The notes under the pieces are model-generated. The model was not told the DNA's origin and made no database searches. It was given only the letters and a program-made list of their open reading frames with translations. Of a stretch of 64,000 bases of DNA, positions 327-12,761 are shown piece by piece. Source of the stretch: an uncultured Alphaproteobacteria bacterium (GTDB lineage: Bacteria; Pseudomonadota; Alphaproteobacteria; CBDUYM01); assembly GCA_965371465.1 (NCBI GenBank), contig CBDUYM010000012.1, positions 15,821 to 79,820 of the forward strand. The letters run 5' to 3'. Position numbers and translations under genes: made by a program. The first letter of the stretch is position 1. Every line of letters begins with the position of its first letter.

Positions 327-695
327 ATGATCGGCTACGTAACACTTGGTACGAATGATTTTGAGCGGGCCGCTGCCTTTTACGATGAATTGCTGTCCTT
401 GATCGGTTGCACGCGCGCCATGGATGGCGATACGTCTATCGGCTGGTCCAATGGCAGCGCCGGCGCGCTCCTCACTATCATCAAGCCCTTTGATCAGCAG
501 CCTGCAACAGTCGGCAATGGCGGCATGGCGGCGATTCAGGTGACGGAACAGATTGATGTGGATCGGCTCCATGCAAAGGCCATTGAGCTGGGCGCGACCG
601 ACGAAGGTGCGCCCGGGCGGAGGGGTGAAGGCTTTTATGCCGGCTATTTCCGTGACCTCGATGGGAACAAGCTGAACGCCTACTTCATGGGGTAG
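327..695 (+). CDS. VOC family protein (glyoxalase/bleomycin-resistance/dioxygenase fold)
   Basis: 122-aa ORF; N-terminus MIGYVTLGTNDFERAAAFYDELL and C-terminal GYFRDLDGNKL are typical of the glyoxalase-I-like fold. Confidence 0.8.
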   Translation: MIGYVTLGTNDFERAAAFYDELLSLIGCTRAMDGDTSIGWSNGSAGALLTIIKPFDQQPATVGNGGMAAIQVTEQIDVDRLHAKAIELGATDEGAPGRRGEGFYAGYFRDLDGNKLNAYFMG

Positions 696-839
696 GCTTG
701 AGGTCAACTCGGCGCTTCAGGCTTGTCAGTTGCAGCGAAGTACAAGGCTGTATCTGGTCACCGCGTCTGACAGGGACGGAGCCTCCATTGCCGCTCTGAT
801 TTGACGCGATAAGTGTTGTCTGGCGAAGAGCCTTGGCGA

Positions 840-1382
840 TCAGGCCTTCAGCATTTTGGCGATGCGGATCACGTCCTCAGCGATTTTACGAATCTCAATG
901 CCCCGCGCCCTGTTGCTGGCCTGATTCTGCGCGTTCGCTGCCTCGTCGTAGACGGCGAAGGCGAGGCTGGCGAGCTCAGCGGCGTGCAAGCTGGCGCCCT
1001 GATTCGCGGGATCGCTGTCGAAAACATCCGCGACGACTTCAAACGCCTGCTTGAGCCTGGCGGCATCAATCGATGTCATCGAATTCTCGCTGTCTGCCGC
1101 AGCCTCGCTCAGAGGCCGGCCTTTGACCAGGCCAGTATCACGGTATCCAAGCTGCCGGATCACCATTTCCGAGACGCCGCGCGGCGTAAGAATCTCAAGA
1201 AGCTGAGCGATCTTGTCGGCGGGCAGGAAATCTTTTGCGGCCAGCTCCGGATTTTCCCAACGGGCGTAGCCGCTTGGTGTCCTGAAGCCCATCCGTTCCG
1301 CCATTTCAGCCTGAGTGAGGCCGGCGGCTCTGCGCAGCGTCTTCAGCCTGAGGGCTGCTGGTTCATGGATTTCTGTGGTCAT
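840..1382 (-). CDS. XRE-family helix-turn-helix transcriptional regulator (phage repressor-like)
   Basis: HTH motif LRLKTLRRAAGLTQAEMAERMGF near the N-terminus; ORF track gives 840..1547, start refined to MTTEIH (1382) because a TTGACA-N16-TATGAT promoter abuts it; alternative ATGs at 1394/1391. Confidence 0.7.
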   Translation of the reverse strand: MTTEIHEPAALRLKTLRRAAGLTQAEMAERMGFRTPSGYARWENPELAAKDFLPADKIAQLLEILTPRGVSEMVIRQLGYRDTGLVKGRPLSEAAADSENSMTSIDAARLKQAFEVVADVFDSDPANQGASLHAAELASLAFAVYDEAANAQNQASNRARGIEIRKIAEDVIRIAKMLKA

Positions 1383-1389
1383 GGCAACC

Positions 1390-1417
1390 ATCATAAACAC
1401 ATTTTTACTGTTGTCAA
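1390..1417 (-). promoter_or_regulatory. Near-consensus sigma70-type promoter (TTGACA-N16-TATGAT) placed for a leaderless repressor transcript
   Basis: On the minus strand, TTGACA at 1417..1412 and TATGAT at 1395..1390, with the ATG of MTTEIH at 1382..1380, about 7 nt from the -10; no SD before any of the three candidate ATGs. Confidence 0.4.
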
Positions 1418-1482
1418 AAGACATTAAAAGTGTAGTTTTCAGTTTCTCCCTTGATCCTTCTCGAAACAGAAATGGAACCGAC

Positions 1483-1872
1483 ATGCCCCAGGGCCGGATA
1501 AAGAAATTGTCGCGCAAACGATGCTGCGAATGCCAGACAGTGCTCAAGCTGAGCGAATTCAGACGGCACCCCAGAACCCGCGACGGCTACGCGAATATCT
1601 GTCGGAGCTGCATGAGCGCTCGCCCCAAGACTTCAACGCAACCCGCTGCATCCGTCACTGCGACGGCGAGAAGCCAACCAAGCCGTGCCAGCTTGCGTCG
1701 TGTCCGGGCGCTTCGCCATATGTATGAACGTCTGTCGTTACGCGGCTACGATGGAAGGCCCCATGCGAATCCGCTGAGCGCTACACCGGCAGCCGGGCGC
1801 GACGCTCCAGACATGACGAAGCGTCGCGGCTCAATTGGCCTGTCTTATACTCGCGACGAGTCGCAGATATGA
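1483..1872 (+). CDS. Hypothetical protein with Cys-rich zinc-ribbon-like N-terminus (phage-associated)
   Basis: In-frame ATG at 1483 within ORF 1315..1872; motif RKRCCECQ...ICRSC; divergent from the repressor; ATGA stop/start overlap with the next ORF. Confidence 0.45.
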   Translation: MPQGRIKKLSRKRCCECQTVLKLSEFRRHPRTRDGYANICRSCMSARPKTSTQPAASVTATARSQPSRASLRRVRALRHMYERLSLRGYDGRPHANPLSATPAAGRDAPDMTKRRGSIGLSYTRDESQI

Positions 1873-2219
1873 AAACTGCTGCACGGAACTGGCCCAAACC
1901 GCCAGTGGCGCGGGCGAGGTTCGAGGGTCAGGGCCTGACGCGGTATCAGATGCAGTCTCTGGAAGCCTGGCAACGGACGGTGGCTGGTCTCGAACAATTT
2001 GAACAAAAAGGCCCAGCCGTCGACGGGCCGCTTCGGGTTACATACACTATCCGCGGCGGTACGGCTAACACCGATCCACCTCTCGAAGCCTATAGCGGTA
2101 TTCTGACCGAGCAGCTCAGGCGTCTTCAGATCATCACCAGGGAAGCGACAGTCTCCAAGGCCATCATTCAATGGGGTGAAGTGAAAGTCGGCGTTCAGAT
2201 TGAAGTGGAGGAAATCTGA
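1869..2219 (+). CDS. Hypothetical protein (phage-associated)
   Basis: 116-aa ORF tightly packed between neighbours (4-nt overlap upstream, 1-nt gap downstream); no recognisable motif. Confidence 0.4.
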   Translation: MKTAARNWPKPPVARARFEGQGLTRYQMQSLEAWQRTVAGLEQFEQKGPAVDGPLRVTYTIRGGTANTDPPLEAYSGILTEQLRRLQIITREATVSKAIIQWGEVKVGVQIEVEEI

Positions 2220-2220
2220 A

Positions 2221-2799
2221 ATGAACCCAAGAAAAGATCAGCCCGACATGAACGAGACTGAAGAACGCCAGATCCCGACAAAGGAATATCTCGGCCACAA
2301 CCCGAATACCGTTGAAATCCGCGACCGCGATCCCGAGACCGGGGCGATTGTGCTGCACTATGTGAACCTGGATCAGCAGAATCATCCGGTTCTCAGCCGC
2401 CTGAGCAGGAACGGCACAATCACACCTGAGCAGGCAATCGCTGCAGAACGCTTTTACACCGATTACAACGCTGTTGGCTGCGGCCCGAACTATGCGACAG
2501 GTTCCCTGATCCGCATCGACAATGCCCATGGCGTCGATCACGACCATCGTGCCGATGTCCAGGCCCGGTATGACGGCGCCAGGCTACTCTTTATGGGGGC
2601 GGCGCTGTCGCTTCAGGTGAATGTTGTCGGTGAAGGCGAAAGCCTGCGTGCCTGGTGCCGGCGCTGGAACGTCAGCCGCAAGGCTGGCCAACGCCCCTAT
2701 TATCACGCGGAATGCATCGAGCTGCTGCGCGGCGTGCTCAATGATCTCGATGACTATTATCGGACCTGGGATTTACGGGTGAAACGCCGGAAAGCCTGA
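2221..2799 (+). CDS. Hypothetical protein (phage-associated)
   Basis: ATG at 2221 directly after the upstream stop (ORF track start 2200 would overlap); 192 aa, no recognisable motif. Confidence 0.45.
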   Translation: MNPRKDQPDMNETEERQIPTKEYLGHNPNTVEIRDRDPETGAIVLHYVNLDQQNHPVLSRLSRNGTITPEQAIAAERFYTDYNAVGCGPNYATGSLIRIDNAHGVDHDHRADVQARYDGARLLFMGAALSLQVNVVGEGESLRAWCRRWNVSRKAGQRPYYHAECIELLRGVLNDLDDYYRTWDLRVKRRKA

Positions 2800-3410
2800 C
2801 CAGGACTGCCAGGCGTCACCATCAGAACTGTAGCGCCTTGCGACCTCGGCATGGGGCCATCATCCCGGCTGGAACAGATCGGGCGCCAGTCCTTATCCGC
2901 CGCGCTGCGGGGGTTGGCGATTGTGCATCGGGGTCTGAACAGAGGCGACGCCTTTGTGGGGGCCGGTGTCGCGGTTTACAGCGAACTTGCCGGGGGCATT
3001 GCCCGGGTTCTGATCCGATTTCTGGCCCTTGGCCTTTTTAAGGGGTTTGGGCTTTCTGGGTTTTTTGGATTTTGGCATGCTTCAATTTCTCACAAGGTAA
3101 ATAGAGGTCATTCAAATGATTGCAGGGCGTGCATCAGCTCCTGCCGTGCGCCCCAGGACACTTTGCGGTTCGTTAAACCCAATTTTTGCGCATTTGCCTG
3201 AACCACTTGTAAGTCACATTGAAGCAGAGTCCGCATACTAACGGGTTTCGCCTGTCCGATCAATGCCTTAGAGCGGCATGACCGCGAAATTTGACCTTTC
3301 GATCAGTTTACGAGACATTGCGGCACGCTTGGCGTTACTGCGTAAGACAGTGACCAACGACCGAGCGAATTCACAGTCATTCAGAAATACCAAGGAAGAG
3401 TGCGGAGCCC

Positions 3411-3929
3411 TTGCGTCCGAAGAAATTTACTGACGATCTTGCCTCAGCCATCTGCCAGCGGATTGCAGCGGGCGAGACCATCCGGCTGATCTGCCAGGAC
3501 GGCGATATGCCCTCGAAGGCGACACTTTATCGCTGGCTCGCGGCTCCGGCTCAGGCAGCGTTTCGCGATCAGTACGCTGTCGCACTTGAAGCGCGTGCCG
3601 AGCTGATGGCAGAGGAAATTTTAGCCATCGCCGATGATGGGGCGAACGACTTTGTCGAGAAGCAGCTTAAATCAGGCGAAATCACCCATGTGTTTGATTC
3701 AGAGCGGGTGCAGCGGTCCCGGCTTCGCGTCGACGCCCGCAAATGGCTCCTCGCAAAAATGCTGCCCCGGAAATATGGCGATCTGGCTGCGCGCAGCAAA
3801 GCGCGTCACGAGGAAGGGCAATCTCAGGATGGAGAACCCGTAGATTACAAACAGGAACTCAATCGCAAACTGGCTCGCCTTGCAGACCAAATCCGCGCGC
3901 GCGAGCTGGATCGAAAGTCTGACGAATGA
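3411..3929 (+). CDS. Phage terminase small subunit
   Basis: 172-aa protein with N-terminal HTH-like segment (ICQRIAAGETIRLICQDGDMPSKATLYRWL) and RSRLRVDARKWLLAKMLPRKYGD, as in small terminases; TTG start; immediately followed by a large-terminase fragment. Confidence 0.6.
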   Translation: MRPKKFTDDLASAICQRIAAGETIRLICQDGDMPSKATLYRWLAAPAQAAFRDQYAVALEARAELMAEEILAIADDGANDFVEKQLKSGEITHVFDSERVQRSRLRVDARKWLLAKMLPRKYGDLAARSKARHEEGQSQDGEPVDYKQELNRKLARLADQIRARELDRKSDE

Positions 3930-4383
3930 TGAGGCTTCGGACTTACTCAAACGCTGGGAGTTCTGGGCACGACCTGAACAGATGGAACCTTCAGGCAACT
4001 GGCGGGTCTGGGCAATTATCGCTGGACGCGGCTTTGGCAAAACGCGAACCGGCGCAGAATGGGTCATGGCCAATGTCACAGGCGATACGCCAATGGCCAA
4101 AGGCCGTTACGGCCGTATCGCGCTGATCGCTGAAACTGCAGCCGACGCCCGCGACGTGATGGTCGAAGGGGAGAGTGGCATTCTGAATATTGCCGCGAAC
4201 AGTTTCCGGCCTACTTACGAACCATCGAAACGTCGTCTGACCTGGCCTAACGGCGCTGTTGCTTCGACGTTTTGCGCCCCTTACCCGATCCAGTTTGGTG
4301 GCGCGATCCAGAATCTTATTCAGTGCCTGTTCAATCGATCGAAACCTGCGTCGGTTGACATCCTTTACCGCTACGCATTGTAG
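3880..4383 (+). pseudogene. Phage terminase large subunit, N-terminal fragment (truncated remnant)
   Basis: WEFWARPEQ and AGRGFGKTRTGAEWV (Walker-A-like) then RIALIAETAADARDVMVEG match the N-terminal ATPase region of GTA/phage TerL, but the ORF stops after 167 aa; full TerL is roughly 400-450 aa and nothing downstream continues it. Confidence 0.55.
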
Positions 4384-4409
4384 CGGGCGTAAGCAGGGAG
4401 ATTACATGA

Positions 4410-4778
4410 ATGGATAAAGAAAAACTCACGGCAACTGTGAAAGAGGAAGGCTTTCATGCCGCCAGGTTCGCCATGCTGGTGACCATCACACTGGGGCTCA
4501 TTGGCCTTCTACAGGCGGCAGGGCTTGATCTTGATGATGTGCTGCCTGCGACCCGGGCTGATATTCAGTTTCTGGAGCAGGCTCAGGCGCGCGATGACGC
4601 CCTGTGGGCCAACTTCAATCTCATGAACCTGCAGGTGCGCCTTGCCCAGATCCAATCCGAGATCGACGCGACGGGCCCGAAACAAACGCTCATCCAGATC
4701 AAGGCTGATCTCGAACGCCAGATCCGCGAACAGACCCAGGAATACGAAGACGCCTCAAGACGCGCCCGCGAAGCGTAG
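4410..4778 (+). CDS. Hypothetical membrane-anchored coiled-coil protein (possible phage lysis/spanin-like)
   Basis: One N-terminal hydrophobic helix (FAMLVTITLGLIGLLQAAGL) followed by a charged, helical, Q/E/R-rich tail. Confidence 0.35.
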   Translation: MDKEKLTATVKEEGFHAARFAMLVTITLGLIGLLQAAGLDLDDVLPATRADIQFLEQAQARDDALWANFNLMNLQVRLAQIQSEIDATGPKQTLIQIKADLERQIREQTQEYEDASRRAREA

Positions 4779-4820
4779 CGGCAACAATCTCATCCCCCCT
4801 CAACCACAGGAGTAATCCCC

Positions 4821-5027
4821 ATGGATACAAAACCTTTTTACCTGTCCAAAACGCTTTGGGCCAATCTCATTGCCGGCGCAGCGGCCGTGCTCACAGCCTT
4901 CGGCTTTGACCTCGGCCTTGATGTCGAGACCCAGACCGCCATCGTCGGTGGCATCATGGCGCTGGTGAATGTTGTACTTCGCCTGACGACAAACAGCGCA
5001 ATTGGCTTAGGCGGTCAGAACGGATGA
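4821..5027 (+). CDS. Small membrane protein (phage holin-like)
   Basis: 68 aa with two hydrophobic segments; ATGA overlap with the next ORF. Confidence 0.4.
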   Translation: MDTKPFYLSKTLWANLIAGAAAVLTAFGFDLGLDVETQTAIVGGIMALVNVVLRLTTNSAIGLGGQNG

Positions 5028-5260
5028 TCTCCGCCGTTCTGAGCGCTCTTGCTTCCGGTCTTGAGGCCATAAAACTGTGGCTGAAAGGCCGGGAGCGAAG
5101 CGAGCTCAAGCATGCCGGGATCAATGAACAGAAAGTAACGGATCATGAAGCAAAAGATGCCTCGCGCGCCGAAAAACGCCGCCGTGACGATCATATCCGC
5201 CGCGATGTTGACGCTAACGTCCGCCTGCGTCAGCACTTCTACGACCCCCATGATCGGTGA
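5024..5260 (+). CDS. Hypothetical small protein
   Basis: 78-aa ORF with hydrophobic N-terminus and a highly charged tail; translationally coupled to the preceding ORF. Confidence 0.3.
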   Translation: MISAVLSALASGLEAIKLWLKGRERSELKHAGINEQKVTDHEAKDASRAEKRRRDDHIRRDVDANVRLRQHFYDPHDR

Positions 5261-5433
5261 TTTCTGCGACGAGTACACTGTCATCCGGGACGCAGACTCC
5301 CGCCATGTGCGCCTCAACAACGCTGTCTATGTCTGCAAATGCCTGGGGCCAGCTCATGCGCTCTATGCGGCAATCGGTTGCGGCGGCGTGGCAGTCTAGC
5401 CTATGCTCGCCCCTTGCATTAGGGGGAGAGATT

Positions 5434-6705
5434 ATGAAATTTGGTGTATTTTACGAGCTTCAGTTGCCCAAGCCCTGGGATGAGGGGCAGGAGCATGCAT
5501 TGTTTCAGCATGCGCTTGATCAGGTTGTGCTCGCCGACGAGATCGGTATCGATCATGCCTGGGCGGTGGAGCATCATTTCCTGGAAGAATATTCCCATTG
5601 CTCCGCGCCGGAGATTTTCCTGGCCGCAGCGGCGGCGCGGACGAAAAACATTCGTGTTGGCCATGGCATCCGCCAGGTCATTGCAAACTACAACAGTCCT
5701 GCGCGCACGGCGGAATGCATCGCGTCCCTCGATCTTATCTCCAACGGCCGGGTTGATTTTGGTATCGGTGAAGGGGCGACGCGGCTGGAGCTTCATGCTT
5801 TTGATATTCCAGCGCCCGAAAAACGCGCCATGAGCCTGGAGGCTGCCGAACAGATCGCCAATATGATGGCGATGACGCCTTATCCGGGCTATGTGGGAAA
5901 ATCGTTTTCCTTCCCGGCAAGGAACGTCATCCCCAAACCGCTGCAAAAGCCCCATCCTCCCATGTGGATGGCTTGCACCAACCGCGACACGATCAAGATT
6001 GCGGCGCAGAACGGCCTTGGCGCGCTTGCGTTTTCCTTCGTTGATCCCGAGGAAGCCCATAAGTGGAGCGAGATATACTACGACATCATCAAATCTGATG
6101 AATGTGTGCCCCTTGGCCATCGGGTGAATGCGAACATTGCCATGGTCTCATCGTTTTCCATGCATCATGATCGCGCCACCGCCATTCGCCAGGGCCAGGA
6201 GGGGTTCGAGTTCTTTGGCTATGCACTGAGACGCCTTGTAACCGAGGACATTATACCAGGCCACACTGAACATTTCGCAGAATTCCAGAAAATGCGCGGC
6301 AACCGGACCGAAGAGATGATTGCTGAGCTGGATGACCAGTCCGAAGGGATGGAACGTTCCGCCGGCATCGGCACGCCGGATGATTTCCGCAATCACGTCA
6401 ATCAGCTCGAAGCCGCCGGCATCGATCAGGTGATCCTGTTGCAGCAGGCCGGGAACAACACCCATGAACAGATCTGCTCTTCCCTGAACCTGTTCGCCGA
6501 AGAGGTGTTGCCCGAATTCAAGGCCAAGGTCGCCGAGAAGGAAGCGCGGAAAGAAAAGGAACTTGCGCCTTACATTGAGGCGGCGCTTGAGCGGAAAGAC
6601 AAAATGCCGGCACCTGCGGTGGAAGACATCCCGATCGTCAAGGCCGCTGTTGACACCAAAGCCTTCAACGAACGCCGCTACGCCAACCGCAGGAAGGCGG
6701 AGTAG
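5434..6705 (+). CDS. LLM class flavin-dependent oxidoreductase (luciferase-like monooxygenase family)
   Basis: Start refined to MKFGVFYELQLP (ATG 5434, preceded by AGGGGGAGAG); typical LLM N-terminus and length (423 aa). Confidence 0.85.
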   Translation: MKFGVFYELQLPKPWDEGQEHALFQHALDQVVLADEIGIDHAWAVEHHFLEEYSHCSAPEIFLAAAAARTKNIRVGHGIRQVIANYNSPARTAECIASLDLISNGRVDFGIGEGATRLELHAFDIPAPEKRAMSLEAAEQIANMMAMTPYPGYVGKSFSFPARNVIPKPLQKPHPPMWMACTNRDTIKIAAQNGLGALAFSFVDPEEAHKWSEIYYDIIKSDECVPLGHRVNANIAMVSSFSMHHDRATAIRQGQEGFEFFGYALRRLVTEDIIPGHTEHFAEFQKMRGNRTEEMIAELDDQSEGMERSAGIGTPDDFRNHVNQLEAAGIDQVILLQQAGNNTHEQICSSLNLFAEEVLPEFKAKVAEKEARKEKELAPYIEAALERKDKMPAPAVEDIPIVKAAVDTKAFNERRYANRRKAE

Positions 6706-6729
6706 GGGACCCAGAGTTCGATCCACGAC

Positions 6730-6755
6730 CGTTCGCCCTGAGCCTGTCGAAGGGC
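6730..6755. repeat. Solo half-copy of the palindromic intergenic repeat (cgttcgccctgagcctgtcgaagggc)
   Basis: Matches the right arm of the hairpin elements at 20014-20073 and 20395-20477; translates to VRPEPVEG in the overlapping spurious ORF; no partner arm seen upstream. Confidence 0.6.
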
Positions 6756-6836
6756 GGCAGCCGCACGCCTACACCAATAATCGTCTTGAAGTGCGGCCGC
6801 GCGCCGCGCGCTATCAGATCATTGAGAACCCCCCAC

Positions 6837-7139
6837 ATGCCCATCATCCGGGACATCTTCACGCTCGACATTCTGCTGCACAGCATCCTTGGGTTTGCCC
6901 TCATGGGATCAATGTGGGCGATGACGCAAGAGGCGGACTGGACGAACTATGCGCGTTTCTCCGCCATGATCCTCTATCTGCGTGAACTGGGCCAGGTGCA
7001 GGGCCGCTATTACGATAACAATTTCCTGAAGGGCTGGACCCTTGCCGGTGCCGATCCGGATCGTGCGTTTCATCGACACATGGAATGGATCGCGCCGTCG
7101 GTTGTGATTAACTGGGTTACGGTTTCCTGGCTGGTGTGA
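6837..7139 (+). CDS. Hypothetical protein
   Basis: ORF 6786..7139 overlaps the repeat; in-frame ATG at 6837 (MPIIRDIF) is more plausible; one hydrophobic segment. Confidence 0.3.
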   Translation: MPIIRDIFTLDILLHSILGFALMGSMWAMTQEADWTNYARFSAMILYLRELGQVQGRYYDNNFLKGWTLAGADPDRAFHRHMEWIAPSVVINWVTVSWLV

Positions 7140-7200
7140 GCAGGGAAATCATTTCGATCCGCCGGGCAGCCCAAAACCTTACATCGCTAGTCCTCCCCCA

Positions 7201-7226
7201 ACGCTCAGGCCACCCTTCCTGAGCGT
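7201..7226. repeat. Perfect 9-bp inverted repeat hairpin (acgctcagg-N8-cctgagcgt) between convergent genes
   Basis: Read directly; shares the cctgagc core with the palindromic repeat family; no T-run follows on either strand. Confidence 0.35.
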
Positions 7227-7293
7227 GGCCCCGCTGGTGCGTACCATTATGGCGCGCGCTGGCGGGGTTTCTTTGCGTTTCAGGAGGTCGGTT

Positions 7294-7707
7294 TCAGGCC
7301 GGGTTCGTCTCGAAGTGAGGTATGGCCGGGTCAAGGTGAGCCCAATCCGGCGCTGAGGACGTCCACACGTTCGCCAATAATTTGAGTCCATTCGGGTCAT
7401 CCAGTGCGCCAGCTTTCACTACACTGCGTTCCGGCCTCGCGCTGCTGCCGGCGAAAAGCGGCGTGCCGCAATCCGGACAGAATGAACGCCAGACACTATT
7501 GCCGCTGTCGGCCTTGTTTTCGAAAATTTTCGGTTCGCCGCCTATCATCCTGATCTGGTCGCTGGCGATCGGCAGGCTGAACGCAGGCGCGCCACCCGAA
7601 ACATACTGACATTCCCGGCAATGGCAGGCGACGAAGGCGGTAGGCTCTGAGATCAACTCAAATCGAACCGCGCCACACATACAGCCACCTTTGATGGGCA
7701 GATCCAT
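7294..7707 (-). CDS. GFA family protein (glutathione-dependent formaldehyde-activating enzyme / CENP-V-like)
   Basis: Cys motifs GGCMCGAVRFE...CHCRECQ...CPDCGTPLF. Confidence 0.8.
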   Translation of the reverse strand: MDLPIKGGCMCGAVRFELISEPTAFVACHCRECQYVSGGAPAFSLPIASDQIRMIGGEPKIFENKADSGNSVWRSFCPDCGTPLFAGSSARPERSVVKAGALDDPNGLKLLANVWTSSAPDWAHLDPAIPHFETNPA

Positions 7708-7957
7708 GAGTATCTCCTACAGAATAAACTTTGTTTTATATTGACTTCAAAGACATATGAACATATAAAACACAGATCATAAAAAGTCAAAAAAAATTGA
7801 ATTTGTAAACTGTGAATACTATTTTATGAAGAGTATGAAACCAAATTTTTTCGAGTACTTGATAAAATGAACTTCATATTTTCTCTAAAAATAAAAAAGT
7901 GATAAACTGAAATTCAAAATAAACTGATCTATATACGAAATATGAAATGAAGTTGCT
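7708..7957. promoter_or_regulatory. AT-rich (about 75% AT) 250-bp divergent intergenic island with a TTGACT-N17-TATAAA promoter-like element facing hipA
   Basis: Composition differs sharply from flanks; TTGACT at 7741-7746, TATAAA at 7764-7769 on the plus strand; repeated short motifs (aataaact twice). Confidence 0.45.
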
Positions 7958-9196
7958 ATGGCCCAATCACTTTGGGGAAATGTATATCTAGACGGCGGTT
8001 ATGCGGGACAATTGCAGGAAGAACCTGGCGGTCGCTGTGTCTTCATTTACGACGCTGCCTGGGTGGCCGAACGCCGGCCGGCCATCGCCCACACGCTGCC
8101 ACTTCGAGACGAACCTTACATAGACGAAAGGGGCTTGCACCCGTTTTTCGACAATCTCGTTGCGGAGGGGTGGCTTCGGAATGCCCAGGCCCGCGTTCTG
8201 GACGTAGCTCCGAGCAACGGATTTGCCCTGCTTCTCGGATTTGGCAGCGACTTGGCGGGGGCTGTCACTGTTCTTGATCCAGAACAGTCTGCGCGCAGAG
8301 TGTTGGACCAGCCCGATGAAGCAACGAGTGCTGCAATGAAGGGCAGCGCCTCCCTCTCTGGCATCCAAAGAAAGCTGCTCCTGATCAAAAAAGGTAAAGG
8401 CTTTCTGCCTGTCGGACCTGGGGAGCCAAGTACGCACATCGCGAAATTATCTTCGGGAGAACATCAGAACATTCTCGCACTGGAGTATCTGACTACAATG
8501 GCTGTGCGTCATCTGCTGCCAGACGATGACATCGTAGACATGGAAATCATGTTTCTTCCGTCTATTGGCGAAGAGGCACTGGTCATTCCGCGATTCGATA
8601 GGGCGCGGTCCGGGCGACGTCTGCATTTTGAGGAATTCAATCAACTGTTAGGGAAGTATTCAGGCGACGATAAGTACGAAGGGGCGTACCAGGACATGGG
8701 GCATTTCATCCTCAACACGCCAGGCTGCGTTCCGGCTGAGGCGGATCGCCTGCTTCGTCGAATTCTGGCCTGCTTGCTGGTCGGCAACACAGACGCACAT
8801 TTGAAGAACTTCGCGATGTTCCATACCCCGAATGGTCTGCGACTTACGCCTGCCTACGATCTGGTCGCTGGCTCGTACTATGCGGACTATCAGCGAATTG
8901 CTCTGACCGTTGGCGAAGCTCATGATCTGGATATCGGCAAACTGCAAGCGAAGCACCTGTTGTCCTTTGGCGAGGGCAGCTTTGGGGTCGCGGAAGACGC
9001 GGTCGTGCTGGCAATCGAACAGCTTGGAAAGCGGCTGTCGCTTGCACTCGCGGCGATCGAAGAATCGGAATTCGGCTCAAAGGCGCTGCGCACGACGCTA
9101 CAGGAAAGAATGGAGAAGAGATGGAACGGCAGTTTCGCATCAACTGGCCAGCTATTGTCGAAGAGGCAAAACAGAGACGCAAGAGCGAGCGGTTGA
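7958..9196 (+). CDS. hipA: HipA-family serine/threonine kinase toxin (type II TA toxin)
   Basis: 412 aa; HipA N-terminal domain pattern (FFDNLVAEGWLR...LLLGFGSDLAGAVTV), GIQRKLLLIK and catalytic-loop-like VGNTDAHLKNFAMF. Confidence 0.85.
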   Translation: MAQSLWGNVYLDGGYAGQLQEEPGGRCVFIYDAAWVAERRPAIAHTLPLRDEPYIDERGLHPFFDNLVAEGWLRNAQARVLDVAPSNGFALLLGFGSDLAGAVTVLDPEQSARRVLDQPDEATSAAMKGSASLSGIQRKLLLIKKGKGFLPVGPGEPSTHIAKLSSGEHQNILALEYLTTMAVRHLLPDDDIVDMEIMFLPSIGEEALVIPRFDRARSGRRLHFEEFNQLLGKYSGDDKYEGAYQDMGHFILNTPGCVPAEADRLLRRILACLLVGNTDAHLKNFAMFHTPNGLRLTPAYDLVAGSYYADYQRIALTVGEAHDLDIGKLQAKHLLSFGEGSFGVAEDAVVLAIEQLGKRLSLALAAIEESEFGSKALRTTLQERMEKRWNGSFASTGQLLSKRQNRDARASG

Positions 9197-9588
9197 CGCA
9201 GGAACGTCTTGCATCCCTGGCAGGCATAAGTACGCCGACAGTCTCGCGTTTTGAAAACGGCATAAGGGACATCACGCTTTCTTCAGTGATGAAAATTCTT
9301 CGTGTGTTGGGAATGGTTGACGAGCGCGTCATGGAATTCGACGATCCGGCTGCCGGATATGATTTGGATAGGGATCTGGTTTACTTCACCGGACAGATCG
9401 GAAGCGAAGCCGTGCCTTGCGCAATCAGCCGTGAAGCTCTGGAGGATCATTTTGAAAAAGGCAAGAAGAGTCTCCTACAGACTTATCAGGCGAACAGCGT
9501 GCACATTAATCATGAAGCCCGACGCAAGTATCTGGCGCAGAGTCTGGAATCCAATGGTTCCATATTGATTAGAACCGAAGACTTCTGA
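9121..9588 (+). CDS. XRE-family HTH protein with about 90-aa C-terminal extension (putative HipB-like antitoxin encoded downstream of hipA)
   Basis: HTH LTQERLASLAGISTPTVSRFENG; ATG 9121 preceded by GGAGAAGAG; overlaps the 3' end of hipA by 76 nt in another frame. Confidence 0.7.
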   Translation: MERQFRINWPAIVEEAKQRRKSERLTQERLASLAGISTPTVSRFENGIRDITLSSVMKILRVLGMVDERVMEFDDPAAGYDLDRDLVYFTGQIGSEAVPCAISREALEDHFEKGKKSLLQTYQANSVHINHEARRKYLAQSLESNGSILIRTEDF

Positions 9589-9617
9589 CGCGAAATTCAG
9601 ATGCGTCCTGGGTCCGC

Positions 9618-10442
9618 CTAGATCCCGAAATCGGCGCCAGCGAGATCGGGGTCGGTGTTCAGATATTTGGCGGTCGCATCCTCCAGCGCATCAGGCCAGG
9701 TCGCGCCAACTGTGGTGCAGATGTTGCGGGCCAACGGGAGATAGCTGCGTGCCACACCAGCATTGGCGGCAATGACGGATGCTTCGTCATCGGCGACTGC
9801 CGGGATGGATCTCAGAAGTTCCTGCTGATCATCAGTGAGGACAGGAAGGAGCTTCTTGCCGCTCGGCCGGGCGCTGGCTGGCGGGGTCATCAGCATCATC
9901 TCGATCAGCATATTTCGGAGAAGATTGAACCCTTCATGGCCGATATGGACGTCCTTCCGACCATTGACCACGACTGAGAGTCCAAGGACCCGGAAAAATT
10001 CGCTGACATGCCCTTCAATGAGCTCCTTCGGCGGGGCGGGCAGCTCCGGCGTATCGGGCACGCCGTCGTAGACATTTGTCGGATCGTAAACTGCGATCAG
10101 GGGCTGATCGAGAACGCCGGAGTCCATTTCGCCGAGCGAAAGATCAACACGGAGCCAGCCTTCTGTAATCAGACTGAGTACACGCATGCCGCCAAAATCG
10201 AAGTTGTTTTCAAGGACCAGAGGATCGATCTCGGCCACCAGGCCGCGCATCTGATCAGAGAGCTCATCCATGTCGTCTTCGGCAGCGATGATCGTCAGAT
10301 CAAGATCACTGAATCTATCGGCGGTCTCTTGTGCGGCTGAGCCTGAAATAAAGCTCGCCTGAACTTTTGGATGGTTCGTCGTCCAGTCGGTGAAAGCCTC
10401 CAGAACAGGGCCATAGGCTGGATCAAGCATTGAAATGGGCAT
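9618..10442 (-). CDS. Nucleotidyltransferase, aminoglycoside 6-adenylyltransferase (ANT(6)/AadK)-like family
   Basis: N-terminal pattern VQASFISGSAAQETADRFSDLDLTII (GS...D.D nucleotidyltransferase motif) and overall layout resemble AadK; assignment from recalled sequence similarity, not a search. Confidence 0.55.
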   Translation of the reverse strand: MPISMLDPAYGPVLEAFTDWTTNHPKVQASFISGSAAQETADRFSDLDLTIIAAEDDMDELSDQMRGLVAEIDPLVLENNFDFGGMRVLSLITEGWLRVDLSLGEMDSGVLDQPLIAVYDPTNVYDGVPDTPELPAPPKELIEGHVSEFFRVLGLSVVVNGRKDVHIGHEGFNLLRNMLIEMMLMTPPASARPSGKKLLPVLTDDQQELLRSIPAVADDEASVIAANAGVARSYLPLARNICTTVGATWPDALEDATAKYLNTDPDLAGADFGI

Positions 10443-10769
10443 CTAGTTTCCTTCAGTTCGGGCTTCGGCTTTTCGGTAATCCCGGAAGATCACCGGGAAG
10501 GCGGCGATATAGAGAATAAGAGTGACGAATCCAGCAATAGCCAGTGTTCTTAAGACATGGGCCGGCTGCTCTAATTGAAATGCCCGCCCGGCAAGAAAAA
10601 TGACAACGCCAGAGCCCAGCATGACCGCTATCCATGTTCTGACCACCAGCTTCCGATTTACTCCGCGCCTGGCTCGCAAATCAAGAAGCAGGCCGACGAC
10701 GATCACGGCAACGATGCTGAGAGGCGTGACAATATTAGCCGTCAGCAGGCTGAACCAGGGGTCGCCCAT
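10443..10769 (-). CDS. Small integral membrane protein (3 predicted TM helices)
   Basis: 108 aa, hydrophobic; SD GGAG 8 nt before ATG; its TAG stop is directly followed by the ATG of the nucleotidyltransferase. Confidence 0.5.
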   Translation of the reverse strand: MGDPWFSLLTANIVTPLSIVAVIVVGLLLDLRARRGVNRKLVVRTWIAVMLGSGVVIFLAGRAFQLEQPAHVLRTLAIAGFVTLILYIAAFPVIFRDYRKAEARTEGN

Positions 10770-10853
10770 AGCTGTTCTCCGCGTGTTGCTCCAACGTTCG
10801 CGTCATATACTATGCCCTATATATAGTGTGCTGATGCAGTCAGGGAGAGCGAA

Positions 10854-11450
10854 ATGTCGCAGCGTATAGAGCCCGCGAGCCAGAAGGTCCTCGATGATCA
10901 GGAAGAGATTCTCTCGCGATCACGAAATCTGATGGGATTCGTGCCGAACGCCATGCAGGTTATGGCCCTGAGGCCAGAGATTCTGGCCGGATTTTCAGGC
11001 CTGTTCGGCTCGGTTTTTGGGCCCGGATCGCTGGTTGACTCTGGGTTAAAGGAAATGATCGCCCATGTCGCCAGCCGAGCAGCAGGCTGCCAGTACTGTC
11101 AGGCCCATACAGCCCATATCGCCGAAATTTTCGGTGTCTCAGCAGAAAAGGTCGAAGCCCTCTGGACCTATGAGCGGAGCGATCTGTTCACGCCGGCTGA
11201 AAAGGCAGCTCTTTCACTGGCCCAGGCTGCGGGCGTCGTACCAAACGCCGCGACGGACGAACATTTCAGGGAGCTCAAAGAACACTATTCTGACGCACAG
11301 ATTGTCGAAATGCTGGCAACCATATCGCTTTACGGATTTCTCAACCGCTTCAACGATTCTCTCGCCACGGTAATGGAAGACCAGGCAATCGAATTTGCCA
11401 CCGCGCACTTAAGCGCGGGCGGCTGGACCGGCGGGAAGCACGTGAGCTGA
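10854..11450 (+). CDS. Carboxymuconolactone decarboxylase family protein (AhpD-like peroxidase-related)
   Basis: CxxC-H motif region AAGCQYCQAHTAHI typical of the AhpD/CMD fold. Confidence 0.8.
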   Translation: MSQRIEPASQKVLDDQEEILSRSRNLMGFVPNAMQVMALRPEILAGFSGLFGSVFGPGSLVDSGLKEMIAHVASRAAGCQYCQAHTAHIAEIFGVSAEKVEALWTYERSDLFTPAEKAALSLAQAAGVVPNAATDEHFRELKEHYSDAQIVEMLATISLYGFLNRFNDSLATVMEDQAIEFATAHLSAGGWTGGKHVS

Positions 11451-11468
11451 CTTAGTCTCCTCCGTTCG

Positions 11469-12761
11469 TTACCCAGATTTGGCGAGAGCCTGTTCGAGAT
11501 CAGCAACGATATCATCGATGTGTTCGAGGCCGACCGAAAGCCTGACATAACCGTCAGTGACACCTGTTGCCGCCTGTTCCTCCGGCGACAATTGCGAATG
11601 GGTTGTCGATGCCGGATGAATGGCGAGGCTGCGGGCATCGCCGATGTTGGCTACGTGATAGTGCATTTCGAGGCTGTCGATAAACTTTTTGCCGGCGTCA
11701 CCGCCACCTTCGAGCTCAAAGCCGACAAGGCCGCCGTAGCCGCCCGCCATATAGGCATCAGCGCGGCGTTTCATTTCACCGGATTGCAGCCCTGGGAAAA
11801 TTACCTTGGTGACCTGATCCTGACTGGTCAGCCAGTCGGCCACCAGGGCGGCATTTCTCGAATGCTCGCGAATGCGCAGCGGCAACGTCTCCAGCCCCTG
11901 AATAAACTGAAACGCATTCATCGGGCTGATGGCGGGCCCCAGGTCGCGCAACAGAACCACGCGCATGCGAAGGTGATAGGCGATCGGGCCCAGGGGTTTG
12001 ACGGCATCGACCCAGACAGCACCATGATAGCTTGGATCAGGCGTGCTGAAGTTCGGCTGGCGTTCCGCATGGGCTTCCCAGTCGAAGTTGCCGCCATCGA
12101 CAACCGCGCCGCCGATGGACGTGCCATGACCGCCGATGTATTTGGTCAGAGAATAAACCACAATGGCCGCGCCATGATCGAGGGGGCGACAGAGTACGGG
12201 TGCGGCGGTGTTGTCGACAATCAGCGGCACGCCAAATTCGCGCCCGATGTCCGAGACTTCCTGGATCGGAAAGACATGCAGTTTCGGGTTCGGCAAGGTT
12301 TCTGCATAGTAGGCGCGGGTCCGGTCATCGGTGGCCGCGCGGAAGGCTTCCGGGTCAGTCGGGTCAACAAATCTTGTTTCGATGCCCATCTGCGAGAGCG
12401 TATTGGCGAACAGGTTCCATGTGCCGCCGTAGAGATCCGTGGACGAAACAATGTTGTCGCCCGCACTTGCCAGATTTTGGACGGCGAGCGCCGATGCCGC
12501 CTGACCAGAAGCAACGGCAAGTGTTGCGACGCCTCCATCAAGGGCAGTCAGCCGATCTTCCAGCACAGCCTGCGTCGGGTTCATGATGCGCGTGTAAATG
12601 TTGCCAAGCTCTTCAAGCCCGAAAAGCTTCGAAGCGTGTTCGGTTGAATCGAACTGATAGGATGTCGTCTGATAGATGGGCACGGCCACAGCGTTCGTGC
12701 TTTCATCCTTCCTGTAGCCTGCATGCAGAACAATTGTTTCCGGATGTATGCTGTCGACCAT
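11469..12761 (-). CDS. metY: O-acetylhomoserine aminocarboxypropyltransferase / O-acetylhomoserine sulfhydrylase
   Basis: PLP-dependent Cys/Met-metabolism motifs (YTRIMNPT, SLTKYIGGHGTSIGG); start refined to MVDSIHPE (12761), preceded by GGGGGAG. Confidence 0.9.
   Translation of the reverse strand: MVDSIHPETIVLHAGYRKDESTNAVAVPIYQTTSYQFDSTEHASKLFGLEELGNIYTRIMNPTQAVLEDRLTALDGGVATLAVASGQAASALAVQNLASAGDNIVSSTDLYGGTWNLFANTLSQMGIETRFVDPTDPEAFRAATDDRTRAYYAETLPNPKLHVFPIQEVSDIGREFGVPLIVDNTAAPVLCRPLDHGAAIVVYSLTKYIGGHGTSIGGAVVDGGNFDWEAHAERQPNFSTPDPSYHGAVWVDAVKPLGPIAYHLRMRVVLLRDLGPAISPMNAFQFIQGLETLPLRIREHSRNAALVADWLTSQDQVTKVIFPGLQSGEMKRRADAYMAGGYGGLVGFELEGGGDAGKKFIDSLEMHYHVANIGDARSLAIHPASTTHSQLSPEEQAATGVTDGYVRLSVGLEHIDDIVADLEQALAKSG

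What the first reader, a model, noticed from the sequence alone, without database searches (positions are those of the whole stretch)
840..5260. Decayed prophage or gene-transfer-agent-like remnant
The region holds an XRE repressor-like gene divergent from a tight array of small overlapping ORFs, then a small terminase and only the first 167 codons of a large terminase, then small membrane and coiled-coil ORFs that resemble lysis genes. No integrase, portal, capsid, tail or endolysin gene is present, so this looks like a deletion remnant rather than an intact prophage. The surviving repressor could still confer superinfection immunity.
Basis: partly seen in the sequence, partly recalled or inferred. 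Interest (0 to 1): 0.55.

Follow-up and report, generated by a model that had tools for sequence, protein, structure and literature searches.

The report
Selectively maintained defective prophage remnant
This 4.6-kb stretch is the stripped-down remains of a temperate phage (repressor, late-gene regulator, small terminase, a stump of the large terminase, lysis genes). It is not rotting away: evolution has kept every one of its small genes intact in two related bacterial lineages, so the host probably uses it.

Summary
Window 840-5399 carries:
- an XRE repressor on the minus strand;
- three tightly packed small genes;
- an Sf6-type small terminase (TerS);
- a large-terminase (TerL) stump;
- a membrane/coiled-coil gene, a holin and an overlapping spanin-like pair.

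TerL homology stops at nt 4278, before Walker B. The rest of TerL is in no frame of the 64 kb, so this is a real truncation.

"Decayed" is not supported. Four metagenome contigs carry the same locus, the same TerL junction and the same chromosomal flanks at about 92% DNA identity. Against them all 11 ORFs show purifying selection (dN/dS 0.05-0.55). The TerL stump scores 0.05 and its 34-codon foreign tail has 0 non-synonymous changes. dS and GC3 equal those of host genes. There are no coding indels and no stops, where about 11 stops are expected under neutrality.

The 192-aa ORF is a divergent DUF6456 protein. DUF6456 is the GafZ/GafA-C family of Q-like antiterminators that switch on gene transfer agents.

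The best reading is a domesticated defective prophage, analogous to E. coli DLP12. It keeps a repressor, antiterminator and late-operon circuit that drives TerS, the TerL stump and lysis genes. Its role for the host is inferred, not shown. Candidates are exclusion or abortive lysis, or a service to a gene transfer agent.

The parts
840..1382 (-). XRE/CI-like repressor, 180 aa: N-terminal HTH and a helical C-terminal part with no S24 peptidase hit
   Evidence: Pfam HTH_31 1.8e-7, HTH_3 2.6e-5; PHROG transcriptional repressor families; NCBIfam RstR-like 2e-5. dN/dS 0.33 vs L004.
1383..1482 (.). Divergent control region. The minus-strand promoter TTGACA-16-TATGAT (1417->1390) ends 7 nt before the repressor ATG, so the mRNA is near-leaderless. 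A possible face-to-face plus-strand -35 (TTGTCA 1411-1416) overlaps it. An inverted 8-mer ATTTCTGT/ACAGAAAT lies at 1369-1376 and 1466-1473.
   Evidence: Promoter scan; repeats; sequence read directly. The plus-strand promoter and any operator role are inference.
1483..1872 (+). 129-aa CxxC...CxxC zinc-ribbon protein (Lar-like / endonuclease-VII-N-like); the fastest-evolving gene of the unit
   Evidence: phrog_5558 2.3e-8, phrog_1035 4.8e-7; dN/dS 0.55.
1869..2219 (+). orf116, unknown function, predicted beta-alpha-beta-alpha-beta-beta
2221..2799 (+). orf192: divergent DUF6456 protein (GafZ / GafA C-domain family). Candidate Q-like late-gene activator or antiterminator.
   Evidence: Exhaustive phmmer finds 12 relatives. 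Six of them hit PF20057 DUF6456, 5.6e-16 to 3.5e-5. hhalign of the orf192 subfamily against them: 99.5%, E 7.7e-23. Homologues P0260 and P0261 lie at the end of phage early regions. GafZ function from PMC11150451 and PMC9638019. dN/dS 0.19.
2893..3078 (-). 61-aa very basic, Lys/Pro/Gly-rich protein, convergent with orf192; function unknown
   Evidence: dN/dS 0.11, p 5e-5. The overlapping + ORF 2851-3201 has dN/dS 1.5 and stops in L004. Called as a gene in L004 and L005. No family hit.
3250..3410 (+). Conserved non-coding block just upstream of TerS. Candidate late promoter, antiterminator loading site or pac site.
   Evidence: 0-4% mismatch against an average of about 9%. No Rfam match. Fold z = -0.9. 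No palindrome. The proposed role is inference only.
3411..3929 (+). Small terminase subunit, Sf6 gp1 type, full length (172 aa)
   Evidence: PF20901 9.2e-39 (profile positions 1-102 of 106); phrog_1482 2.5e-40. 50-53% identity to annotated phage TerS. dN/dS 0.09-0.12.
3880..4383 (+). TerL': codons about 7-133 are the N-terminal ATPase part of a T4-type large terminase. Walker A (GRGFGKT) is present. Walker B, the rest of the ATPase and the nuclease are absent. It is fused at nt 4278/4279 to 34 unrelated codons.
   Evidence: PF03237 6.3e-11, profile positions 2-79 of 215. 57% identity to phage TerL N-termini. Same junction in L003-L006. dN/dS 0.05 (33 synonymous, 6 non-synonymous, p 3e-15); tail 5-9 synonymous, 0 non-synonymous.
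4410..4778 (+). orf122: N-terminal transmembrane helix followed by long helices (coiled-coil-like); lysis-cassette accessory of unknown role
   Evidence: Kyte-Doolittle (KD) hydropathy TMD at 15-41. AF2 all-helical, pLDDT 62. No family hit. dN/dS 0.07.
4821..5027 (+). Holin-like 68-aa membrane protein
   Evidence: PHROG holin families 34682 (3e-4), 962, 297, 9752; Pfam Phage_holin_10 0.018. Its 40%-identical homologue is the first gene of a lysis cassette (XhlA-like, PlyB-like endolysin) in phage MW202608. dN/dS 0.10.
5024..5260 (+). i-spanin-like 78-aa protein, 40% charged residues, borderline N-terminal hydrophobic segment
   Evidence: Position and overlap with the lipoprotein gene. KD 1.39, below the 1.6 cut-off. 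No family hit. The non-overlapping part has dN/dS 0.08.
5145..5399 (+). o-spanin-like lipoprotein, 84 aa. It starts inside the previous gene in another frame (overlapped architecture).
   Evidence: Signal peptide 11-31, lipobox-like TSAC with Cys28. phrog_1275 Rz-like spanin E 0.006. The non-overlapping part has dN/dS 0.08, p 4e-6.

Best explanation
This is a vertically inherited, domesticated remnant of a temperate tailed phage.

Losses (inferred): deletions removed the integrase side, the replication genes and the whole morphogenesis block. One deletion fused TerL codon 133 to 34 unrelated codons just upstream of the lysis cassette, and the endolysin probably went with it.

What is left is a compact, intact regulatory cascade:
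1. A CI-like XRE repressor.
2. A divergent early promoter.
3. An early operon: Zn-ribbon protein, orf116 and a DUF6456 GafZ/Q-like activator-antiterminator.
4. A conserved late control region.
5. A late operon: TerS, the TerL stump, orf122, a holin and an i-/o-spanin pair.

Shown:
- gene identities;
- the truncation point;
- the shared junction and synteny in a second lineage;
- strong purifying selection on every ORF since that split.

Inferred: the host keeps the locus because it works.

Most likely working model (about one in three): it is a repressor-gated exclusion or suicide module. The repressor gives immunity to related phages. When the circuit is switched on, for example by an infecting relative's anti-repressor or late activator, two things follow. 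The holin and spanins, using the invader's own endolysin, cause premature death or lysis. TerS and the ATPase-dead TerL N-fragment, which is the part of TerL that normally contacts TerS, interfere with the invader's packaging.
For: - Gene calls.
- Truncation: TerL homology ends at nt 4278 and is nowhere else in the 64 kb.
- Shared ancestry of the truncated state: L003-L006 have the identical junction and tail. L004 is syntenic with window 509-12600.
- Selection against L004: TerL' dN/dS 0.05 (p 3e-15), tail 0 non-synonymous, TerS 0.12, orf122 0.07, holin 0.10, spanin non-overlap parts 0.08, orf116 0.11, orf192 0.19, orf61 0.11.
- Host flanks score 0.05-0.09. dS is mostly the same in element and host genes: about 0.16-0.46 for whole element ORFs (0.67 in the short o-spanin non-overlap segment) against 0.24-0.35.
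- Zero coding indels and zero stops, against about 11 stops expected under neutrality.
- GC and GC3 equal those of host genes, so residence has been long.
- orf192 is DUF6456. Its homologues sit at the early/late boundary of phage genomes. GafZ is a Q-like antiterminator (PMC11150451; bioRxiv 10.1101/2024.11.20.624540).
- The gene order (early genes, antiterminator, gap, late genes) and the TerS-plus-TerL-stump pattern mirror E. coli DLP12: rusA-quuD-essD-rrrD-rzpD/rzoD-...-nohD-aaaD'.
Against: - No experiment supports any of this. No defence-family hit in PADLOC.
- No endolysin is present, so the cassette cannot lyse on its own.
- The i-spanin N-terminal TMD is only borderline. The holin and o-spanin profile hits are weak.
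- One relative (L003) has a nonsense codon at TerL' codon 122, so the stump is not indispensable in every cell.
- The selection evidence rests on essentially one deep comparison, the window against a 97-99% identical cluster of four contigs.
- The element was found only in this narrow clade.
- The promoter, operator and late-control assignments are pattern-based only.
Confidence: 0.6

Rival explanations
1. It is a peripheral control and release locus of a gene transfer agent. The DUF6456 protein, under the XRE repressor, switches on a GTA head-tail cluster elsewhere in the genome. It also co-expresses this locus's TerS and lysis genes so that particles are filled and released. This parallels RogA, GafYZ, the GTA cluster and its accessory loci in Caulobacter.
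For: orf192 belongs to the GafZ/GafA-C family. GTA genes are typically scattered and mis-annotated as remnant prophages, and they are under host-level selection (PMC9638019, PMC9632790, PMC11150451). The purifying selection and host-like composition fit. A cassette without an endolysin would make sense if the lysin is encoded elsewhere.
Against: orf192 is a divergent member that does not reach Pfam's own DUF6456 threshold. Its nearest homologues are in phage-like early regions, not GTA loci. No GafY (DnaA-domain-IV-like) partner was detected next to it. No head, tail or packaging family appeared among the 25 of 35 PHROG families listed for the other 57 ORFs of the window, apart from one lysin-type 'minor tail protein' hit, phrog_382. 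RcGTA-type clusters carry their own TerS and TerL. The rest of the genome could not be examined.
Confidence: 0.17
2. It is a neutral wreck: an ordinary cryptic prophage fragment on its way to deletion, with ORFs that merely have not yet been hit.
For: TerS plus truncated-TerL remnants are common products of decay. Examples are L177, cut by an IS21 element, and DLP12 nohD-aaaD', annotated as a pseudogene. L003 has a nonsense mutation in TerL'.
Against: dN/dS is 0.05-0.25 for nine of the eleven ORFs, with p values down to 3e-15 (XRE 0.33, Zn-ribbon 0.55). There are 0 stops against about 11 expected, and no indel in 3.6 kb of coding sequence, while the non-coding spacer has a 16-bp indel. dS equals that of host genes, so the comparison spans the whole post-truncation history.
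Confidence: 0.06
3. The low dN/dS is imported. The remnant acts as a recombination partner of active related phages, and its alleles are periodically overwritten by phage alleles that evolved under selection in functional phages. The remnant itself need have no function.
For: Relaxed homologous recombination between temperate phages and defective prophages is established (De Paepe et al. 2014, as cited in PMC6379469). The terminase and lysis genes are those that a superinfecting relative would share.
Against: The junction and the 34-codon non-TerL tail cannot exist in an intact phage, yet they show 5-9 synonymous and 0 non-synonymous changes. dS shows no clear outlier across the whole element ORFs and matches host genes. 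No close phage relative of any element gene was found: TerL is at most 67% identical in IMG/VR, and there is none for orf122 or orf192.
Confidence: 0.07
4. It is a helper-dependent phage satellite (PICI-like) that uses its own TerS to redirect a helper phage's packaging.
For: Satellites carry a repressor, a few regulators and a TerS. A 60%-identical TerS lies in an island with a primase, a helicase-like ATPase and a resolvase but no TerL (L007 and L008).
Against: There is no integrase, excisionase, primase/replicase or att repeats. The position is fixed and syntenic in two diverged lineages, with host-like dS. Satellites do not usually carry a lysis cassette plus a TerL stump.
Confidence: 0.05

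Closest known systems
E. coli K-12 cryptic lambdoid prophage DLP12 (also Qin and Rac), and the general class of 'domesticated defective prophages' (Bobay, Touchon & Rocha 2014, PNAS; cited from my own knowledge and via PMC6379469)
   Same: It is a grounded prophage that kept nin-type small genes, a Q-type antiterminator (quuD), a holin, overlapping or embedded spanins (rzpD/rzoD), a small terminase (nohD) and only an N-terminal stump of the large terminase (aaaD'), which directly abuts distal late genes. It is vertically inherited and kept under purifying selection.
   Different: It occurs in a different bacterial group; the alphaproteobacterial assignment is only an inference from its relatives. 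Its late regulator is DUF6456, not Q-lambda, Q21 or Q82. It has no integrase, tRNA site, IS elements or endolysin. Its order is terminase then lysis, not lysis then terminase. The TerL stump here is an intact ORF with dN/dS 0.05, whereas aaaD is annotated as a pseudogene. At 4.6 kb it is much smaller.
RogA / GafY-GafZ (Caulobacter) and GafA (Rhodobacter) control of gene transfer agents
   Same: An HTH repressor gates a small operon that encodes a DUF6456 protein. That protein activates or antiterminates a late, phage-derived operon ending in cell lysis (PMC9632790, PMC11150451, PMC9638019). orf192 is homologous to this family.
   Different: orf192 is a distant subfamily. No GafY partner is recognisable. 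The repressor is an XRE type without an S24-like domain. The operon downstream holds no head or tail genes.
Lambda-type Q-dependent late-gene switch
   Same: The layout is: repressor, early genes, a regulator at the end of the early region, a spacer of about 600 nt containing a conserved block, then late genes (packaging and lysis).
   Different: No sequence similarity to Q. No terminator or qut-like element could be identified. The similarity is one of architecture only.
Packaging interference by phage satellites (SaPI Ppi, PICI Rpp and satellite TerS; from my own knowledge)
   Same: A chromosomal element encodes terminase-related proteins that could bind a phage's terminase subunits and divert or block packaging.
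   Different: No homology to Ppi or Rpp. The element is not mobile. Interference by an ATPase-dead TerL N-fragment has not been described as far as I know. This is a hypothesis only.

Membership tests
Small terminase, Sf6 gp1 type (PF20901) | Full-length match to the family profile above the curated cut-off | tested here: met
   132 bits against a cut-off of 27, profile positions 1-102 of 106; phrog_1482 2.5e-40.
Large terminase (T4-type, PF03237 N-domain plus nuclease C-domain) | Walker A P-loop in an N-terminal region homologous to TerL | tested here: met
   GRGFGKT at residues 49-55; 57% identity to phage TerL residues 34-154; PF03237 6e-11.
Large terminase (T4-type, PF03237 N-domain plus nuclease C-domain) | Walker B / catalytic Glu, the remainder of the ATPase domain and the C-terminal nuclease | tested here: not met
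   Only profile positions 2-79 of 215 are matched. The alignment ends 13 residues before the reference Walker B (AWCDE). No further match in any frame of the 64 kb. It is therefore a fragment, not a terminase.
DUF6456 (GafZ / GafA C-terminal domain) | Sequence homology to the family across the domain | tested here: met
   hhalign of the orf192 subfamily against six PF20057-positive proteins: 99.5%, E 7.7e-23, 148 columns. phmmer E 5e-5 to 5e-4 against 1.8 billion proteins.
DUF6456 (GafZ / GafA C-terminal domain) | Direct hit to Pfam PF20057 above the gathering score | tested here: not met
   No PF20057 hit for orf192 or for its close relatives P0259-P0261, even at E<=1. It is a divergent subfamily.
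DUF6456 (GafZ / GafA C-terminal domain) | Adjacent GafY (DnaA-domain-IV-like HTH) partner, and antitermination activity | tested here: inconclusive
   The upstream orf116 has no Bac_DnaA_C or HTH hit and is predicted as alpha/beta. About a third of GafZ homologues lack an adjacent GafY (PMC9632790). Activity cannot be tested with these tools.
Gene transfer agent (RcGTA-like) | Head-tail structural cluster (portal, capsid, tail) under the activator's control | not testable with these tools
   None in the finding. No head, tail or packaging family appeared among the 25 of 35 PHROG families listed for the other 57 ORFs of the window, apart from a phrog_382 lysin-type 'minor tail protein' hit in an unidentified ORF.
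Intact (inducible) prophage | Integrase and att sites, replication genes, portal, capsid, tail, endolysin | tested here: not met
   None found by Pfam, PHROG or NCBIfam in 840-5399. No tRNA. No flanking direct repeats above chance.
Holin | Small membrane protein with one or more TMDs, encoded in a lysis cassette | tested here: met
   68 aa. One segment has KD>=1.6 and a second is moderately hydrophobic. Four PHROG holin families, best 3e-4. Its homologue is the first gene of a cassette with an endolysin in phage MW202608. Hole-forming activity was not tested.
Two-component spanin (Rz/Rz1-like) | o-spanin: a small outer-membrane lipoprotein (signal peptide plus lipobox Cys) whose gene is embedded in or overlaps the i-spanin gene in another frame | tested here: met
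   The 5145-5399 ORF overlaps 5024-5260 out of frame. Signal peptide 11-31, TSAC with Cys28 (relaxed lipobox, Thr at -3). phrog_1275 Rz-like spanin 0.006. Its own frame is under selection, dN/dS 0.08.
Two-component spanin (Rz/Rz1-like) | i-spanin: N-terminal transmembrane anchor plus a periplasmic coiled coil | tested here: inconclusive
   The N-terminal 19 residues have mean KD 1.39, below the 1.6 cut-off. The rest is 40% charged. It is only 78 aa and has no family hit.
Domesticated defective prophage (sensu Bobay et al. 2014) | The same defective element at the orthologous chromosomal site in diverged lineages | tested here: met
   L004 is syntenic with window 509-12600 at 90-93% identity, with an identical TerL junction.
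Domesticated defective prophage (sensu Bobay et al. 2014) | Purifying selection on its genes (dN/dS well below 1) | tested here: met
   dN/dS 0.05-0.55; nine of 11 ORFs are at or below 0.25 (XRE 0.33, Zn-ribbon 0.55), with p from 1e-2 down to 3e-15. Neutral simulation.
Phage satellite (PICI / P4-like) | Integrase, a replication module and helper-dependent mobility | tested here: not met
   No integrase, primase or replicase. Fixed syntenic position with host-like dS.
Known anti-phage defence systems (PADLOC-DB 2.0) | Profile match to a catalogued defence protein | tested here: not met
   Only sub-threshold HTH-type matches.

The most novel reading that the evidence does not exclude
The TerS plus ATPase-dead TerL N-fragment pair, which is under housekeeping-level constraint, could be the working payload of a previously undescribed prophage-derived defence or control module. 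In this reading the pair is a 'terminase decoy' that sequesters or mis-directs the terminase of infecting relatives, or of a resident GTA. It is co-expressed with holin and spanins from a late promoter that a DUF6456 (GafZ-like) antiterminator switches on and an XRE repressor keeps silent.
Probability: 0.15. Interest if true: 0.7.

Novelty: new member of a known kind. Interest (0 to 1): 0.4.

Why it matters
Cryptic prophage fragments are usually dismissed as junk. This one is a clean, very small example (11 genes, 4.6 kb) in which sequence evidence alone shows that the host lineage has preserved the whole circuit, including a truncated terminase that cannot be an enzyme.

It also places a DUF6456 / GafZ-type regulator, so far studied only as the master switch of gene transfer agents, in a phage-style position between early and late genes. 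That supports a phage late-regulator origin for GTA activators. It also offers a minimal natural system (regulator, target region and five late genes) in which to study that family.

If the terminase stump acts as a packaging decoy, that would be a new way for bacteria to turn phage parts against phages. As it stands, the finding is an instructive member of a known class, not a new class.

Tried and rejected
- Sequencing frameshift in TerL: rejected. No TerL C-terminal similarity in any frame of the window, and the same junction is present in four independent contigs.
- First TerL probe: the TerL from L009 belongs to a different terminase type and did not match even the stump. I replaced it with the Brevundimonas phage Strzyga TerL.
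- Finding the intact progenitor phage or an empty site failed:
  - genome collection: only two distant TerS loci;
  - GenBank phages at DNA level: two trivial hits;
  - plasmids: none;
  - 80 IMG/VR loci with related TerL (at most 67% identical) carry none of the element's other genes within 10 kb;
  - orf122 and orf192 have no IMG/VR relatives;
  - 80 metagenome loci with the neighbouring LLM gene lack the element and lack upstream synteny.
- + strand ORF 2851-3201: rejected as a gene (dN/dS 1.5, stops in L004). The minus-strand 61-aa ORF is the conserved one. The 72-nt match to an Octadecabacter virus 'TerS' is low-complexity and in the wrong frame.
- TerL' tail as the C-terminus of a known phage protein: no match.
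- Structured RNA, Rfam family or palindrome in the conserved block upstream of TerS: none.
- att-like flanking repeats: only chance-level matches.
- Known defence systems: none.
- Other short TerL N-products in long contigs turned out to be ordinary. One is a split TerL in an otherwise complete prophage (L176). One is a TerL cut by an IS21 element (L177).
- Taxon of the source genome could not be established. The 90% clusters of its housekeeping proteins hold no named members.

Full report
1. What is there

Six-frame ORF listing, direct reading of the sequence and profile searches give the following map.

- 327-695 (+): a host glyoxalase/VOC gene.
- 840-1382 (-): an XRE-type repressor (HTH_31 1.8e-7; PHROG repressor families). 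An 11/12 sigma-70 promoter, TTGACA-16-TATGAT, ends 7 nt before its ATG. This implies a near-leaderless mRNA, as for many CI-type repressors.
- A tightly packed plus-strand trio:
  - a CxxC...CxxC zinc-ribbon protein (1483-1872; phrog_5558 'Lar-like' 2e-8);
  - orf116 (1869-2219);
  - orf192 (2221-2799).
- About 600 nt that hold a 61-aa basic protein on the minus strand (2893-3078).
- 3411-3929: a full-length Sf6-type small terminase (PF20901 9e-39; phrog_1482 2.5e-40).
- 3880-4383: an overlapping 167-codon ORF whose N-terminal part is a T4-type large terminase (PF03237 6e-11, profile positions 2-79 of 215).
- orf122 (4410-4778): one transmembrane helix plus long helices.
- A 68-aa holin-like protein (4821-5027).
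- A 78-aa highly charged protein (5024-5260).
- 5145-5399: an out-of-frame 84-aa ORF that overlaps the previous gene. It has a signal peptide, a lipobox-like TSAC and a weak Rz-like spanin hit.
- 5434: a host luciferase-like monooxygenase starts.

There is no tRNA, no att-like repeat above chance, and no integrase, replication, portal, capsid, tail or endolysin gene. For the other 57 ORFs of the window, none of the 25 (of 35) PHROG families listed is a head, tail or packaging family. The one exception is a lysin-type 'minor tail protein' hit (phrog_382) in an ORF I did not identify. The window is chromosomal: it carries ParC, SpoT and others.

2. The terminase truncation is real

A 546-aa TerL from Brevundimonas phage Strzyga aligns to the window only over its residues 34-154 (57% identity). 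The alignment ends at window nt 4278. That is 13 residues before the reference Walker B motif. Nothing else in the 64 kb matches the remaining 390 residues in any frame. Walker A (GRGFGKT) is present. Walker B, the rest of the ATPase domain and the nuclease are gone. The last 34 codons of the ORF have no detectable homologue.

3. It is not decaying

The protein collection holds close relatives of TerS and of the TerL stump. Their contigs, L003-L006, come from Logan metagenome assemblies of one study and carry the same arrangement.

- L004 (10.4 kb) is collinear with window 509-12600 at 90-93% identity, including the host genes on both sides.
- The four contigs are 97-99% identical to one another and about 92% identical to the window. 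In effect there is one deep comparison plus some within-population variation.
- The TerL junction and the 34-codon tail are identical at protein level in all five sequences. The truncation therefore predates the split.

Nei-Gojobori counts against L004:

| Gene | Result |
|---|---|
| TerL stump | 33 synonymous / 6 non-synonymous, dN/dS 0.05, p 3e-15 |
| Foreign tail of the stump | 5-9 synonymous / 0 non-synonymous |
| TerS | 0.12 |
| orf122 | 0.07 |
| Holin | 0.10 |
| Non-overlapping parts of both spanin-like genes | 0.08 |
| orf116 | 0.11 |
| orf192 | 0.19 |
| Minus-strand 61-aa gene | 0.11 |
| Repressor | 0.33 |
| Zn-ribbon | 0.55 |
| Flanking host genes | 0.05-0.09 |

- dS is about 0.16-0.46 for whole element ORFs (0.67 in the short o-spanin non-overlap segment) against 0.24-0.35 for host genes. 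The element has therefore co-diverged with the chromosome.
- Scattering the observed number of substitutions at random gives about 11 premature stops across the 11 ORFs. None is seen, and no run out of 2000 left all ORFs intact.
- There is no indel in coding sequence. The non-coding spacer has a 16-bp one.
- GC and GC3 match the host.
- The only blemish is a TGG->TAG change at stump codon 122 in one contig (L003).

This is the signature of a domesticated defective prophage. That phenomenon was documented at scale in enterobacteria (Bobay et al. 2014; from my own knowledge, cited in PMC6379469).

4. A GafZ-type regulator

orf192 had no direct profile hit. A word-indexed search found only its 91% orthologue. 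An exhaustive phmmer over 1.8 billion representatives found 12 relatives. Six of these are bona fide PF20057 DUF6456 proteins. A profile-profile comparison of the orf192 subfamily with them gives 99.5% probability, E 8e-23, over 148 columns.

DUF6456 is the annotation of GafA, the direct activator of the Rhodobacter gene transfer agent (PMC9638019, PMC9765227). Its stand-alone version GafZ is a processive antiterminator of the Caulobacter GTA cluster. GafZ loads between -35 and -10 and travels with RNAP-NusAGE (PMC11150451). It has been argued to be structurally Q21-like (bioRxiv 10.1101/2024.11.20.624540).

The two nearest non-orthologous homologues of orf192 lie at the downstream end of phage-like early regions containing methylases, DUF1376 replication proteins and GapR (L174 and L175). 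That is where a late-gene regulator belongs.

In the window, orf192 is followed by a spacer. Its last about 160 nt (3250-3410) are the most conserved non-coding sequence of the locus: 0-4% mismatch against about 9% on average. I could not find a palindrome, a terminator, an Rfam family or a significant fold there. Its role as a late promoter, loading site or pac site is inference.

5. Lysis genes

The holin call rests on four weak PHROG holin hits. It also rests on a 40%-identical homologue that opens a lysis cassette (XhlA-like protein, PlyB-like endolysin) next to the terminase in an uncultured phage.

The overlapped, out-of-frame lipoprotein gene, under selection in its own frame, is the hallmark of a two-component spanin. 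However, the putative i-spanin has only a borderline membrane anchor. No endolysin is present, so the cassette cannot lyse a cell unaided.

6. How it most likely works

Shown:
- the parts;
- their order;
- the truncation;
- the age of the truncated state;
- the constraint on every ORF.

Inferred:
- The repressor keeps a divergent early promoter off.
- When it is relieved, the early operon produces the DUF6456 protein.
- That protein turns on or antiterminates transcription from the conserved region upstream of TerS, through TerS, TerL', orf122, the holin and the spanins.

Why a host would keep this cannot be decided here. I rate 'functional, domesticated remnant' at about 0.6 as formulated. 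The sub-models rank as follows.

- (a) A repressor-gated exclusion or abortive-lysis module. The holin and spanins act together with an invader's endolysin. TerS plus an ATPase-dead TerL N-fragment jam the invader's packaging. About one in three within the main explanation.
- (b) A peripheral control or release locus of a GTA encoded elsewhere (0.17).
- (c) Low dN/dS imported by recombination with active phages (0.07). The constrained, non-phage junction tail and the lack of any clear dS outlier argue against it.
- (d) A neutral wreck (0.06), contradicted by section 3.
- (e) A satellite (0.05). It has no integrase or replicase and sits at a fixed site.

7. Comparison with what is known

The closest analogue is E. 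coli K-12 DLP12. It retains rusA, the Q homologue quuD, essD (holin), rrrD, rzpD/rzoD, the Nu1 homologue nohD and only a roughly 100-codon stump of gpA (aaaD, a pseudogene) that abuts tail-fibre assembly genes. TerS-plus-TerL-stump remnants also arise in other ways, for example by IS21 insertion in L177.

Four things differ here:
- the regulator family is DUF6456 instead of Q;
- the locus is extremely compact;
- there is no endolysin;
- the terminase stump is an intact ORF under housekeeping-level constraint.

8. Verdict

It is a new member of a known kind, the domesticated defective prophage. Two features are worth a specialist's attention: the phage-context GafZ-like regulator and the strongly constrained TerS and TerL-stump pair. 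Interest is 0.4.

Limits:
- the source taxon is unknown;
- there is only one deep evolutionary comparison;
- the whole genome is not available;
- no intact progenitor phage was found;
- all functional statements beyond homology are inference.

Noticed in passing
window 7460-9616: This segment is absent from the otherwise collinear relative L004. It contains an AT-rich stretch (GC 0.40 at 7500-8250) and a HipA-type kinase toxin gene at 7958-9196 (Couple_hipA plus HipA_C). It looks like a strain-specific insertion of a toxin-antitoxin module. No HipB partner was identified.
   Followed up: partly
window 3250-3450: This is the most conserved stretch of the locus: 0-4% mismatch against four relatives, compared with about 9% on average. 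It is mostly non-coding and lies just upstream of and into the TerS start. No Rfam hit, significant fold or palindrome was found.
   Followed up: yes
window ~3365-3380 vs L003 cols 455-486: The 16-bp unit CGAATTCACAGTCATT is single in the window but tandemly duplicated in L003 and L004. It is the only indel in the whole 4.6-kb locus and lies in non-coding DNA upstream of TerS.
   Followed up: no
L003:985-1350 (= window TerL' codon 122): TGG->TAG nonsense change in the TerL stump of one metagenome contig. The other three contigs of that population and the window keep the ORF. It is either a rare null allele or an assembly or sequencing error.
   Followed up: partly
L007:4925-11810 and L008 (ENA metagenome contigs): A TerS 60% identical to the window's sits in an island with a Toprim primase, an AAA_25 ATPase, a PAPS-reductase-like gene and a Peptidase_S74 gene. 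It is followed by a resolvase and no TerL. The layout is satellite-like.
   Followed up: no
window 2893-3078 (-): A 61-aa extremely basic, Lys/Pro/Gly-rich, probably disordered protein lies between the antiterminator-like gene and TerS on the opposite strand. It is under purifying selection (dN/dS 0.11) and has no homologues in any library. A small minus-strand gene occupies the same position after the orf192 homologue in L175.
   Followed up: partly
window, one of the 57 ORFs beyond 6786 (not identified): One ORF matches phrog_382 'minor tail protein with lysin activity' at 2e-11. It is probably a host peptidoglycan hydrolase. Because the element lacks an endolysin, it would be worth finding out which gene this is.
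   Followed up: no
L176:8001-9720 and L177:7421-8525: These are other short TerL N-terminal products of the same family in long contigs. One is a TerL split into 152 and 400 aa inside an otherwise complete prophage. The other is a TerS plus a 174-aa TerL stump cut by an IS21 element.
   Followed up: yes
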